From: a virus
Lineage: Duplodnaviria > Heunggongvirae > Uroviricota > Caudoviricetes
Length of the DNA stretch: 23,254 bases
IMG/VR virus record: IMGVR_UViG_2651869755_000006
Location: 1-23,254 of that record
Reading direction: 5' to 3' (one strand)
The notes below the pieces were generated by a model, which worked only from the letters and a program-made list of their open reading frames with translations, was not told where the DNA came from and did not search any database. The first letter of the stretch is position 1, and each line of letters starts with the position of its first letter. Below are positions 15,090-21,961 of this stretch, in pieces. A program made the translations under genes and the position numbers.

Positions 15090-15095
15090 GCATGT

Positions 15096-15125
15096 AAAAA
15101 GGCCCCAACACATGTGCGTGGGGCC
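15096..15125 (-). terminator. Minus-strand terminator-like hairpin upstream of the holin gene
   Basis: Minus-strand RNA: GGCCCCA-(11-nt loop)-UGGGGCC followed by UUUUUAC. Confidence 0.35.
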
Positions 15126-15325
15126 TGAGAGTATACATGGTTTCAGTCAACTGCATGGTGCCGGGTGCCTCCCGGTGAATTCAGTACCAGCACCTGAATC
15201 CGCGATTATCCCATATACCTACTCGCTGATTGCCCCTCCGCACAGGGGGATTCACCATGCCAGTTTCTTTTAACAAACTCCCCGCAAAACAGACAACTGT
15301 CAACCGTCTGAATTGTGAGACATTT

Positions 15326-15354
15326 AAAAAAAAGGCCCGCAAAAGCGAGCCGGG
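15326..15354 (-). terminator. Intrinsic terminator immediately downstream of the tRNA cluster
   Basis: Minus-strand RNA: GGCUCGC-UUUU-GCGGGCC hairpin followed by 8 U, about 12 nt after the tRNA-Arg 3' end. Confidence 0.55.
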
Positions 15355-15365
15355 AAAAATAAGTC

Positions 15366-15442
15366 TGGCGCGTTGTACTGGATTCGAACCAGTGACCGAT
15401 TGCTTAGAAGGCAATTGCTCTGTCCGGTTGAGCTAACAACGC
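15366..15442 (-). tRNA. tRNA-Arg, anticodon UCU (reads AGA)
   Basis: Hand-folded cloverleaf: acceptor GCGTTGT/ACAACGC + G + CCA, D-arm GCTC/GAGC, anticodon stem ATTGC/GCAAT with loop CTTCTAA, T-arm ACTGG-TTCGAAT-CCAGT. Confidence 0.8.
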
Positions 15443-15455
15443 AGGGTACAGATAA

Positions 15456-15532
15456 TGGACCGCCATCGAGGACTCGACCCCCGCGCAACCAGCTTCGAAG
15501 GCTGGTGCTCTATCCTGATGAGCTAATGGCGG
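15456..15532 (-). tRNA. tRNA-Arg-like, anticodon read as UCG (CGA), with non-canonical features
   Basis: Hand-folded: acceptor CCGCCAT/ATGGCGG (C1-G72) + T73 + CCA, D-arm GCTC/GAGC, anticodon stem CCAGC/GCTGG with loop CTTCGAA, T-loop GTCGAGT (G where T54 is expected). Confidence 0.55.
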
Positions 15533-15539
15533 TATGTGA

Positions 15540-15615
15540 TGGTGGCCCTTGCTGGATTTGAACCAGCGACCTGGCGATTATGAGTCGCTCGCTCTCACCT
15601 CTGAGCTAAAGGGCC
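15540..15615 (-). tRNA. tRNA-Ile2-like, anticodon CAU (ileX/ileZ-type, probably lysidine-modified to read AUA)
   Basis: Hand-folded: GGCCCTT acceptor, anticodon loop CTCATAA, T-arm GCTGG-TTCAAAT-CCAGC, ends GGGCCACCA; close to E. coli ileX as I recall it. Confidence 0.75.
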
Positions 15616-19433: not shown

Positions 19434-19589
19434 TTACTCCTCAGGTTCGTAAGCTGTGAAGACAGTGACCTCCGTCTGGCCGGTTCGGATTCGTACCTCG
19501 CAGAGGTCTTTCCTCGTTACCAGTGCCGTCACAATGACGGTAATACAGATGACGATCAGGGCGACTAACATCGCCTTTTGCTGCTTCAT
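19434..19589 (-). CDS. hok: Hok-family type I toxin, 51 aa
   Basis: MKQQKAMLVALIVICITVIVTALVTRKDLCEVRIRTGQTEVTVFTAYEPEE is near-identical to E. coli Hok/Gef family proteins as I recall them; AAGGAG Shine-Dalgarno 9 nt upstream. Confidence 0.85.
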   Translation of the reverse strand: MKQQKAMLVALIVICITVIVTALVTRKDLCEVRIRTGQTEVTVFTAYEPEE

Positions 19590-19646
19590 AGCCTGCTTCT
19601 CCTTGCCTTTCGGCGCGTAAGAGGCTAACCTAGATTTGCCGTTCAT
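19434..19646 (-). CDS. mok: Mok-like in-frame upstream reading frame overlapping hok, 70 aa
   Basis: In-frame ATG 19 codons upstream of the hok start, as in chromosomal mokC/hokC pairs. Confidence 0.5.
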   Translation of the reverse strand: MNGKSRLASYAPKGKEKQAMKQQKAMLVALIVICITVIVTALVTRKDLCEVRIRTGQTEVTVFTAYEPEE

Positions 19647-19800
19647 AGATTGAGCCTCAGATTAATGTTAAGCGTCTTGCCGGACGCGTAATGTTAACTG
19701 GGGCTTTTCTCTATCTGCCTTTTGGTGTTCATGCCTGAGACAGATAGCCTCAAGCACCCGCAGCAATTCTACTTAACTCTCCTTTTCCCGCAAACCGTTT

Positions 19801-20664: not shown

Positions 20665-21156
20665 TCACTCTCCTTTGATGCGAATACCAGTGGTACTCAT
20701 TATCCTGATTTCCCAGAGCACACGAGGAACACCACCGTTTCCGACTGGATCGCGTTTACTCCGCAGGGCGACGCTTGATTCCGCCCAGCTTTTTCTTGGA
20801 GGAAGCTCTTTCACACGAACAAAACCAGCTGCGCGAAGAGATGCTCCTGATTCATCTGCCCGGGTGTACGTAATACAACGTTGATAACCCATAGCTTTTG
20901 CTGCCCGCCAGACAGCACCATAAAGCGCGCTGTTAGCGTTGCGTTCTCCTGTGGTACATGTGCGATTTACTTCAAGCGTTAATCCATCATCCAAATGTCG
21001 TGCAACAGGTCGACCGGCTGTCGCCACACCTATCAATTCTCCGGCATCATTTCTCAGACCAATGCTGAATTTATGCCCCACCGGGGGTTTATTGTGTCGG
21101 TGATGTCTGGATATAAACGCCTTCGCAACACGAAGAGTAACCGGTGAAATTTGCAT
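20665..21156 (-). CDS. Hypothetical early protein, ~163 aa from the ATG at 21156
   Basis: Internal ATG at 21156 has the AAAGGAGAG linker Shine-Dalgarno; the ORF-track start at 21195 would overlap the upstream gene. C-terminus ...GIRIKGE is encoded by the linker repeat. Confidence 0.55.
   Translation of the reverse strand: MQISPVTLRVAKAFISRHHRHNKPPVGHKFSIGLRNDAGELIGVATAGRPVARHLDDGLTLEVNRTCTTGERNANSALYGAVWRAAKAMGYQRCITYTRADESGASLRAAGFVRVKELPPRKSWAESSVALRSKRDPVGNGGVPRVLWEIRIMSTTGIRIKGE
20668..20690 (-). repeat. Linker repeat copy A: CTGGTATTCGCATCAAAGGAGAG (minus-strand sense)
   Basis: 23-bp sequence shared with copy C (one mismatch) and in its 3' 15 nt with copy B; encodes the ...GIRIKGE C-terminus and the Shine-Dalgarno of the next gene. 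Confidence 0.7.
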
Positions 21157-21158
21157 TC

Positions 21159-21518
21159 TCACTCTCCTTTGATGCCAATGTTTACAGACTGGCAAGCCTC
21201 TTTGAGCACCCAGTCAACAGCGTCTTTCCATGCTCCGGTTTCGACTGGCGGATTCTCACGCTTTACCTGTTCATAGAAACGCACTGCTTTAATCAATCCT
21301 TCTGGTGTCAGTGGCACAGGCGGGGCAGTGAATAACGCCTGAATTTCATAGTTCGGTCTGTCGTTGCAATCCTCTTTTGTCGGTACATATTTCCAGTCAC
21401 CAACCCACTGCTTCCCCTGAAAGTCTGTAACGCCTTTTTTCACGTAGCGATATCGCCATGCCACTGGTTTTGCCTGCCCTGCCTTTTCATGCCCTTCCTG
21501 ATAATTAATCTCGCTCAT
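21159..21518 (-). CDS. Hypothetical early protein, 119 aa
   Basis: ORF ending ...NIGIKGE on the linker repeat; its start overlaps the stop of the upstream acidic ORF (ATGA). Confidence 0.55.
   Translation of the reverse strand: MSEINYQEGHEKAGQAKPVAWRYRYVKKGVTDFQGKQWVGDWKYVPTKEDCNDRPNYEIQALFTAPPVPLTPEGLIKAVRFYEQVKRENPPVETGAWKDAVDWVLKEACQSVNIGIKGE
21162..21176 (-). repeat. Linker repeat copy B: GGCATCAAAGGAGAG
   Basis: Encodes ...IGIKGE-stop and the Shine-Dalgarno of the next gene. Confidence 0.6.
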
Positions 21519-21691
21519 TCATCGCCCCACTCATCACAATATGCTTCGACCGGTGTTTTCCCTGCTTCATAATCATCACGCCATGCTTCAGCATCAGCGG
21601 CACTTCCACCGCGTAACTCTGCATAATCCATTAACAGTTCATGCCATTCTTCAAAACTGGCGTTATATTTAGTTGAACCAAAATCAGCCAT
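21515..21691 (-). CDS. Small highly acidic protein, 58 aa (not in the ORF track)
   Basis: Reads MADFGSTKYNASFEEWHELLMDYAELRGGSAADAEAWRDDYEAGKTPVEAYCDEWGDE; 16 Asp/Glu against 4 Lys/Arg; translationally coupled on both sides. Confidence 0.45.
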   Translation of the reverse strand: MADFGSTKYNASFEEWHELLMDYAELRGGSAADAEAWRDDYEAGKTPVEAYCDEWGDE

Positions 21692-21866
21692 TTTGTTCTT
21701 CCTCTTCGTCTTTTATTTCGTGGTATGAGTAATTGCAGTAGTTAAAGAAAATATCTTTAGCTTCATCCTGTATTTCATCTGGTGTTGCATCATCATCCAC
21801 TTCGAATTCATCCTCGAAATCTCCACCGGCTATTCCCGTTTCAATAATTATTTTGAATTTTCGCAT
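21684..21866 (-). CDS. Small highly acidic protein, 60 aa
   Basis: Reads MRKFKIIIETGIAGGDFEDEFEVDDDATPDEIQDEAKDIFFNYCNYSYHEIKDEEEEQNG; 20 Asp/Glu against 5 Lys/Arg; 8-nt overlap with the next acidic ORF. Confidence 0.5.
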   Translation of the reverse strand: MRKFKIIIETGIAGGDFEDEFEVDDDATPDEIQDEAKDIFFNYCNYSYHEIKDEEEEQNG

Positions 21867-21961
21867 TTCACTACCGCCCTTTCGGACGGCCTCCTGATGT
21901 TCTGAGGGTGCAGAAATCCCTCCGGTTAAGGATTTGATTTTATTTACAGTGCTAAATTTAA

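What the first reader, a model, noticed from the sequence alone, without database searches (positions are those of the whole stretch)
21515..21866. Two tandem, overlapping, extremely acidic small proteins in the early region
The 60-aa and 58-aa ORFs are each roughly a quarter to a third Asp/Glu with very few basic residues, and are coupled to each other and to the next gene by overlapping stops and starts. Small strongly acidic early phage proteins are the typical form of DNA-mimic anti-restriction and anti-defence proteins, and of proteins that bind host DNA-binding proteins. This is a candidate only.
Basis: inference. Interest (0 to 1): 0.5.

Follow-up and report, generated by a model that had tools for sequence, protein, structure and literature searches.

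The report
Two small acidic phage accessory proteins
Two real, conserved, very acidic ~60-residue early proteins of an E. coli lambdoid prophage belong to two unrelated families of unknown function found in many phages and plasmids; they may block host DNA-binding or defence proteins, but nothing yet shows this.

Summary
ORF-A (21684-21866, 60 aa, 20 D/E, 5 K/R) and ORF-B (21515-21691, 58 aa, 16 D/E, 4 K/R) overlap by 8 nt. B overlaps the next gene by ATGA. They are the two most acidic of 149 ORFs in the window and are under strong purifying selection (pN/pS about 0.09).

A belongs to Pfam DUF7167. B has no Pfam family (PHROG 519). Neither family has a named or studied member.

The two are not an obligate pair. 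Outside E. coli-type lambdoid phages each family occurs alone: A in Klebsiella, Salmonella, Pseudomonas and Enterococcus phages, B in P2-like and Vi01-like phages and 554 plasmids.

Acidic residues are conserved position by position in both families. The pair is in 36% of complete E. coli genomes.

Best reading, at about 0.4 confidence: two independent early inhibitors that occupy basic nucleic-acid-binding surfaces of host proteins, probably defence proteins. This is inference only.

The parts
21684..21866 (-). ORF-A: 60-aa acidic protein, Pfam DUF7167 / PHROG 1997. Predicted beta-beta-alpha-beta domain plus acidic C-terminal tail.
   Evidence: ORF and translation. DUF7167 E 1.2e-14, 54.5 bits against a cut-off of 24.4. 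phrog_1997 E 2.7e-30. AF2 pLDDT 78.8. pN/pS 0.089.
21515..21691 (-). ORF-B: 58-aa acidic protein with no Pfam family, PHROG 519. Predicted three-helix bundle.
   Evidence: ORF and translation. phrog_519 E 8.5e-23. No Pfam hit. Exhaustive HMM search gave 80 clusters of mostly 48-65 aa stand-alone proteins. AF2 pLDDT 87.5. pN/pS 0.089.
21684..21691 (-). 8-nt A/B overlap ATGGCTGA (start of B, stop of A): a translational-coupling junction that belongs to the 5' end of B.
   Evidence: Sequence. Same spacing in 81 of 82 related loci. The identical ATGGCTGA junction couples B to a different upstream gene (DUF1187) on an IncI2 plasmid.
21515..21518 (-). ATGA overlap between the stop of B and the start of the downstream 119-aa gene.
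   Evidence: Sequence.
21159..21518 (-). Downstream coupled gene: 119-aa protein with an Ea22-like C-terminal part (PHROG 660). This is context, not part of the acidic pair, and it is variable between phages.
   Evidence: phrog_660 E 7.6e-46. Replaced, truncated or absent in related loci (67-100% identity) while A-B stays constant.
21867..21961 (-). 95-nt spacer upstream of ORF-A with no predicted promoter or terminator. A and B are probably read through from the upstream early genes.
   Evidence: Promoter/terminator scan found nothing on the minus strand here. The local hairpins are not better than shuffles (z -1.13).

Best explanation
ORF-A and ORF-B are two unrelated, independently mobile accessory proteins expressed early from the rightward operon. 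Each is a single compact domain (A: beta-beta-alpha-beta plus acidic tail; B: three-helix bundle). The hydrophobic and aromatic core of each is conserved, and the surface carries a position-conserved array of Asp/Glu. The most likely mode of action is stoichiometric inhibition. The protein would dock its carboxylate surface onto a basic nucleic-acid-binding surface of a host protein and keep DNA or RNA out, in the manner of Ocr, ArdA, gp5.9, Gp2 and acidic anti-CRISPRs. The target is most probably a defence or DNA-surveillance enzyme met by incoming mobile DNA. Shown: the genes are real, the acidity is conserved, the distribution is as described, the two families are independent, and they lie in the early operon. 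Inferred: the folds (predicted only), that the conserved acidic positions lie on the surface, and the binding, the target and the anti-defence role.
Confidence: 0.4

Rival explanations
1. Host-takeover or regulatory proteins that target housekeeping DNA- or RNA-binding machinery (RNA polymerase as T7 Gp2 does, nucleoid proteins such as H-NS or HU, SSB partners) rather than defence systems.
Against: Profile comparison with Gp2 gives 0.3% probability. From my own knowledge of Gp2, its jaw-binding arginines lie in the last strand, and A has none there (YSYHEIKD). B is carried by conjugative plasmids and by prophages in a third of E. coli genomes, where shutting down host transcription would be costly.
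Confidence: 0.2
2. Accessory subunits or modulators of the mobile element's own DNA replication or recombination proteins, for example an acidic partner of an exonuclease, annealing protein or initiator.
For: A overlaps the PD-(D/E)XK exonuclease gene in Klebsiella Guernseyvirinae, next to a Gp2.5-like SSB and the DNA polymerase gene. A sits between Erf/SSB/Dam and a DNA pol III theta homologue in Salmonella prophages. B directly follows replication gene A in P2-like phages and lies about 1.8 kb from repA on the IncI2 plasmid, in the next operon. In this window both follow the replication module.
Against: The neighbouring replication or recombination gene differs in every lineage, so there is no conserved partner. 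In Vi01-like phages B follows the major capsid gene. The Enterococcus 'exonuclease' next to A is really an ASCH/DUF3850 protein. Accessory genes simply accumulate in these early regions.
Confidence: 0.15
3. A and B act together as an obligate two-protein complex or toxin-antitoxin-like pair.
For: 8-nt overlap and adjacency in 81 of 82 related loci, with a constant block inside mosaic flanks. Both halves are present in 1750 of the 1931 E. coli genomes that have either.
Against: All those loci are 93-100% identical, so they reflect common descent. In every distant locus one family occurs without the other (HMM scan). The ATGGCTGA junction travels with B and couples it to DUF1187 on plasmids. Both proteins are strongly negative. 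Neither matched a toxin, an antitoxin or any defence-system model.
Confidence: 0.05

Closest known systems
T7 Ocr (gp0.3) and ArdA: DNA-mimic inhibitors of type I restriction-modification and BREX
   Same: Early expression, no catalytic motifs, the same charge density (Ocr -0.24 per residue; A -0.25; B -0.21), and carriage by both phages and conjugative plasmids (B).
   Different: No sequence or profile similarity (hhalign probability at most 2.4%; no Pfam hit). Half the size. Different predicted folds. A dimeric, DNA-shaped charge array has not been demonstrated.
T7 Gp2, the acidic 64-aa inhibitor that binds the RNA polymerase beta-prime jaw
   Same: A has the same size and beta-beta-alpha-beta order of elements, and a negatively charged helix face.
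T7 gp5.9 and lambda Gam: RecBCD inhibitors by DNA mimicry
   Same: gp5.9 is a 52-aa acidic protein encoded immediately upstream of the phage exonuclease gene. A occupies that position in Klebsiella Guernseyvirinae.
   Different: No homology. From my own knowledge, gp5.9 and Gam are helical dimers, whereas A is predicted alpha/beta.
Small acidic anti-CRISPRs and T4 Dmd (AcrIIC3, AcrIC9, AcrIE2)
   Same: Compact alpha/beta domains of similar size appear among A's weak structural neighbours.
Lambda exo-xis and nin small ORFs (Orf60a, Orf61, Orf63, NinD-H, Ea8.5)
   Same: The same genomic niches (nin-like region here, exo-xis region in ArgO145) and the same status as non-essential early accessory genes.
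   Different: No detectable homology to any of them (best BLASTP E 0.27).

Membership tests
Pfam DUF7167 (PF23768) | Score above the curated gathering threshold of the family HMM | tested here: met
   ORF-A scores 54.5 bits against a cut-off of 24.4, E 1.2e-14, over residues 2-53. RefSeq also names the E. coli copies 'DUF7167 family protein'.
PHROG 519 (unknown function) | Significant match to the family profile | tested here: met
   ORF-B E 8.5e-23, matching profile positions 76-137 of 143, so it corresponds to the C-terminal part of a profile that includes longer members.
Pfam DUF5419 | Score above the gathering threshold | tested here: not met
   One Morganella phage relative of B is annotated DUF5419. 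That protein, ORF-B and five other relatives give no hit, and only 1 of 39 family members reaches E 0.02.
DNA-mimic proteins (functional class) | High density of surface Asp/Glu and very few basic residues | tested here: met
   A is 33% D/E with net -15, and B is 28% D/E with net -12. This is conserved position by position in the families. That these residues lie on the surface is inferred from the predicted folds.
DNA-mimic proteins (functional class) | Carboxylates arranged with the spacing of B-DNA phosphates, usually on a dimer | not testable with these tools
   The predicted models returned only confidence and secondary structure, not coordinates, and no oligomer prediction was available.
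DNA-mimic proteins (functional class) | Competitive binding to the DNA-binding site of a target protein | not testable with these tools
   This needs pull-down, complex prediction or biochemistry.
Ocr / ArdA anti-restriction families | Sequence or profile homology to Ocr or ArdA | tested here: not met
   hhalign against T7 Ocr gives probability 0.1% (A) and 2.4% (B). No Pfam Ocr or ArdA hit at E up to 0.1.
T7 Gp2 RNA polymerase inhibitor family | Homology to Gp2; the beta-beta-alpha-beta fold | tested here: inconclusive
T7 gp5.9 / lambda Gam RecBCD inhibitors | Sequence homology | tested here: not met
   hhalign probability at most 0.3% for gp5.9. BLASTP against lambda Gam gives no hit.
Known anti-phage defence systems (PADLOC-DB) | Match to any defence-protein model | tested here: not met
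   No hit for A, B or six neighbouring genes at E up to 0.01.
Two-gene operon system (obligate A+B pair) | Co-occurrence of the two families across distant lineages | tested here: not met
   HMM scan of loci holding distant A or B relatives: A loci lack B and B loci lack A. The only locus in that scan with both is the E. coli Rac-type phage record L092.

The most novel reading that the evidence does not exclude
ORF-B, and independently ORF-A, found new families of broad-host inhibitors of bacterial immunity. These would be minimal single-domain acidic decoys carried by about a third of E. coli genomes, by virulent phages of Gram-negative and Gram-positive bacteria, and by hundreds of conjugative resistance plasmids. 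They would neutralise a widespread DNA-targeting defence or surveillance enzyme, so B would promote both phage infection and plasmid spread.
Probability: 0.25. Interest if true: 0.7.

Novelty: new member of a known kind. Interest (0 to 1): 0.4.

Why it matters
Both proteins are very common and wholly uncharacterised. The pair is present in 1931 of 5426 complete E. coli genomes. B relatives are on 554 plasmids, mostly conjugative, including an IncI2 plasmid that carries blaCTX-M-55. If either protein disarms a defence or DNA-surveillance system, it would be a small, easily expressed tool. It would also help explain how Stx-type and other lambdoid phages, virulent therapeutic-type phages (Vi01-like, Enterococcus Kochikohdavirus) and resistance plasmids establish in new hosts. 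If neither does, they are two more small accessory proteins of the lambdoid 'ea/nin' kind.

Tried and rejected
- **Lambda genes:** no homology to lambda exo-xis, nin, ral, gam or ea genes (BLASTP).
- **T7 inhibitors:** no homology to T7 Ocr, Gp2, gp5.9, gp5.5 or gp1.2 (hhalign).
- **PDB by sequence or profile:** only chance-level hits.
- **NCBIfam and PADLOC:** nothing for A or B.
- **DUF5419:** the label on a Morganella relative of B could not be reproduced.
- **Literature:** DUF7167, DUF1187, DUF5419, lygF, MN652886 and six protein accessions gave nothing relevant. The exo-xis modelling paper (PMC8614690) returned nothing relevant on a term search.
- **AcrIE9:** considered as the abundant enterobacterial anti-CRISPR. 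It is a different protein (it begins MNFTIKSR) and binds DNA.
- **Own promoter, terminator or structured RNA upstream of A:** not supported, and Rfam finds nothing in the region.
- **Exonuclease link for A:** holds only for Klebsiella Guernseyvirinae. The Enterococcus 'exonuclease' is an ASCH/DUF3850 protein.
- **Search limitation:** The search for related loci with the diverse B alignment failed for lack of a conserved stretch. The closer alignment returned only near-identical E. coli prophages, which cannot test co-occurrence independently.

Full report
**Observation**

The two ORFs are real and lie on the minus strand. ORF-A is 21684..21866 (60 aa) and ORF-B is 21515..21691 (58 aa).
- A has 20 Asp/Glu and 5 Lys/Arg, net -15.
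- B has 16 Asp/Glu and 4 Lys/Arg, net -12. Both have pI 4.05.
- A's stop and B's start share the octamer ATGGCTGA.
- B's stop and the next gene's start share ATGA.

Among all 149 ORFs of at least 50 aa in six frames of the window, these two are the most acidic by a clear margin. Across 32 (A) and 28 (B) distinct DNA variants from related loci, pN/pS is 0.089 for each, so both are translated and constrained.

**Where the window comes from**

The window is an E. coli lambdoid prophage, 97% identical over this stretch to Escherichia phage vB_EcoS-689R5. All genes run on the minus strand in this order: DUF1627 and DUF977/Ren-like genes, a 137-aa zinc-ribbon protein, A, B, an Ea22-like 119-aa protein, a Mom-like XF1762-family protein, further ea-type ORFs, hok/sok, a YdfU-like gene, rusA, Q, three tRNAs, then lysis and structural genes.

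A and B therefore sit in the nin-equivalent part of the rightward early operon. In Stx phage ArgO145 the same pair (gp15, gp14) sits in the int-exo region of the leftward early operon. No promoter-like or terminator-like site lies on the coding strand in the 95-nt spacer upstream of A, and its hairpins are no better than shuffles. Read-through early expression is the simplest reading; this is an inference.

**Family assignment**

- **A** is a member of Pfam DUF7167 (54.5 bits against a cut-off of 24.4) and of PHROG 1997.
- **B** has no Pfam family. It matches PHROG 519 (unknown function). A DUF5419 label on one relative could not be reproduced.
- NCBIfam, PADLOC and PDB sequence or profile searches give nothing.
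- All database names are 'hypothetical' or 'DUF7167 family protein'.
- Searches of the literature library for the DUF names, neighbouring gene names and accessions found nothing.

**Structure**

- **A** (AF2, pLDDT 78.8) is predicted as strand 2-9, strand 16-23, helix 29-39, strand 45-51, then an acidic C-terminal segment.
- **B** (AF2, 39-sequence alignment, pLDDT 87.5) is a three-helix bundle: 13-27, 34-42 and 47-55.
- B's list is generic (AAA+ lid domains, UBA).
- Foldseek against BFVD finds only uncharacterised small phage proteins at E 0.03 or worse.
- Profile comparisons with T7 Ocr, Gp2, gp5.9, gp5.5 and gp1.2, and BLASTP against lambda exo-xis, nin, ral and gam proteins, are all negative.

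The folds exclude membership of the known mimic families. They neither support nor exclude mimic-like action.

**Are A and B a pair?**

In 81 of 82 related viral or phage loci, A and B are adjacent with the same overlap. Meanwhile the upstream 137-aa gene, the Ea22-like gene and the Mom-like gene (present in only 7 loci) come and go. The block is present in 1931 of 5426 complete E. coli genomes, and 1750 of these have both halves.

These copies are 93-100% identical, however, so this is shared descent rather than independent evidence.

Distant A relatives occur as follows:
- in Citrobacter and Klebsiella prophages, followed by an unrelated basic 59-aa protein;
- in Salmonella P22-like prophages, between Dam and a pol III theta homologue;
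- in a Pseudomonas prophage;
- in virulent Klebsiella Guernseyvirinae, overlapping the PD-(D/E)XK exonuclease gene;
- in virulent Enterococcus Kochikohdavirus, after an ASCH/DUF3850 gene.

Distant B relatives occur as follows:
- in P2-like prophages, directly after replication gene A;
- in Vi01-like Ackermannviridae, after the major capsid gene;
- in a Morganella phage and in metagenomic phages;
- on 554 plasmids, 516 of them conjugative. These include an IncI2 plasmid with the operon CaiF/GrlA regulator, DUF1187, B, SPFH, NfeD. They also include IncT and IncU plasmids.

An HMM scan of all these loci finds A without B and B without A. The one exception is the E. coli Rac-type phage record (L092). 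On the IncI2 plasmid the same ATGGCTGA junction couples B to DUF1187. The overlap is therefore a property of B's first codons (Met-Ala-Asp), not of an A-B partnership.

**What is conserved**

Acidity is conserved in both families over large distances. A relatives carry net -10 to -13, and the B family has a median of -10.

The conservation is positional.
- **A** has 13 columns that are at least 70% Asp/Glu across 48 sequences: E9, D19, E22, D24-D26, D30, E31, E35, D38, E50 and the tail. These sit between invariant hydrophobic or capping residues (I8, F21, V23, A27, T28, I32, A36, F40, C44).
- **B** has 12 columns that are at least 60% acidic across 39 sequences, interleaved with W16, L20, A24, W37, Y41, G44 and P47.

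This is what one expects if the carboxylate surface is itself the functional element.

**Mechanism**

I commit to the reading that A and B are two separate, stoichiometric inhibitors. Each would present a negatively charged surface to a basic nucleic-acid-binding site of a host protein, most probably a defence or DNA-surveillance enzyme met when mobile DNA enters a cell. My confidence is about 0.4.

Support for this reading is indirect:
- charge density equal to that of Ocr;
- positional conservation of the acidic residues;
- early expression;
- the pan-mobile-element distribution, including virulent phages and conjugative plasmids;
- persistence of the block inside mosaic accessory regions;
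- recurrent neighbours of anti-restriction type: the Mom-like protein here, orphan methylases, and one Lar_restr_allev protein next to a B relative;
- A's gp5.9-like position upstream of an exonuclease gene in one lineage.

Against it:
- there is no partner, no phenotype and no homology to any known inhibitor;
- fold matches are weak;
- the one IncI2 locus examined has no anti-restriction-type gene annotated nearby;
- small acidic ORFs are common in lambdoid accessory regions.

Three rivals remain:
- housekeeping host targets such as RNA polymerase or nucleoid proteins (0.2);
- accessory roles in the element's own replication or recombination (0.15);
- an obligate A-B complex (0.05, largely refuted by the distribution).

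**Novelty and verdict**

The sequences are known as hypothetical proteins, and one family already has a DUF number. What is added here is the following:
- the two are independent families rather than a pair;
- both have position-conserved acidic surfaces on minimal predicted folds unlike known mimics;
- their distribution spans virulent and temperate phages and, for B, conjugative plasmids.

Under the best explanation they would be new members of a known kind, small acidic inhibitor proteins. Interest is moderate (0.4): this is a well-founded and very prevalent candidate, but still only a candidate.

Noticed in passing
window 20665-21195 (-): 176-aa basic protein (pI 11) of the NCBIfam XF1762 family (E 1.4e-60) and PHROG 'Mom-like DNA modification protein' (E 2.9e-42). 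It is below threshold for Pfam Mom. It is present in only 7 of 82 related loci and may be a DNA-modification (anti-restriction) gene two genes downstream of ORF-B.
   Followed up: partly
window 20665-20688 (-) and the C-termini of the genes at 20665-21195 and 21159-21518: The Mom-like protein ends in ...GIRIKGE, the same C-terminal motif as lambda Ea22 (...AGIRIKGE). The 119-aa protein ends in ...IGIKGE. The DNA (GGTATTCGCATCAAAGGAGAGTGA) also supplies the Shine-Dalgarno sequence of the next gene. It looks like a shared module-boundary sequence that could promote the mosaic reshuffling seen around A-B.
   Followed up: partly
window 19434-19759 (-): A hok-type toxin ORF (19434-19646) with a full-length Rfam sok antitoxin RNA (19584-19759, 111 bits) inside the nin-like region.
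   Followed up: no
window 15090-15615 (-): Downstream of Q lie three tRNA genes (Met-cat, Arg-tcg, Arg-tct) followed by a full-length STnc100 sRNA match (140 bits). The closest phage relative, vB_EcoS-689R5, carries Gly, Thr and Met tRNAs at this place instead.
   Followed up: no
L106 8793-9177 (IncI2 plasmid NZ_CP031550.1): The B homologue (86% identical) is coupled by the same ATGGCTGA overlap to a DUF1187 gene, in an operon: CaiF/GrlA-like regulator, DUF1187, B, SPFH, NfeD. A 127-aa DUF1187-B fusion protein also exists (P0145).
   Followed up: partly
L111 3001-4171 (metagenomic phage contig): A 51-aa B-family protein lies directly upstream of a 319-aa protein with a Lar_restr_allev (restriction alleviation) domain, downstream of RecT and an AAA_23 protein.
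   Followed up: no
PP818812.1 (Actinobacillus phage vB_Apl-pPE4), hits H11 and H60: A phage recorded as infecting Actinobacillus pleuropneumoniae carries this region at 94% DNA identity to E. coli prophages. This is surprising for a Pasteurellaceae host and may reflect a host-assignment or contamination problem.
   Followed up: no
L095 3013-3513, L103 3013-3513, P2 orf91 (L110 5317-5646), L087 759-1094: DUF3850/ASCH-like small genes recur next to, or in the same slot as, A and B relatives: upstream of A in Enterococcus phages, and after gene A in P2 where other P2-like phages carry B. In Enterococcus phage records this gene is annotated 'exonuclease', which the Pfam hits do not support.
   Followed up: no
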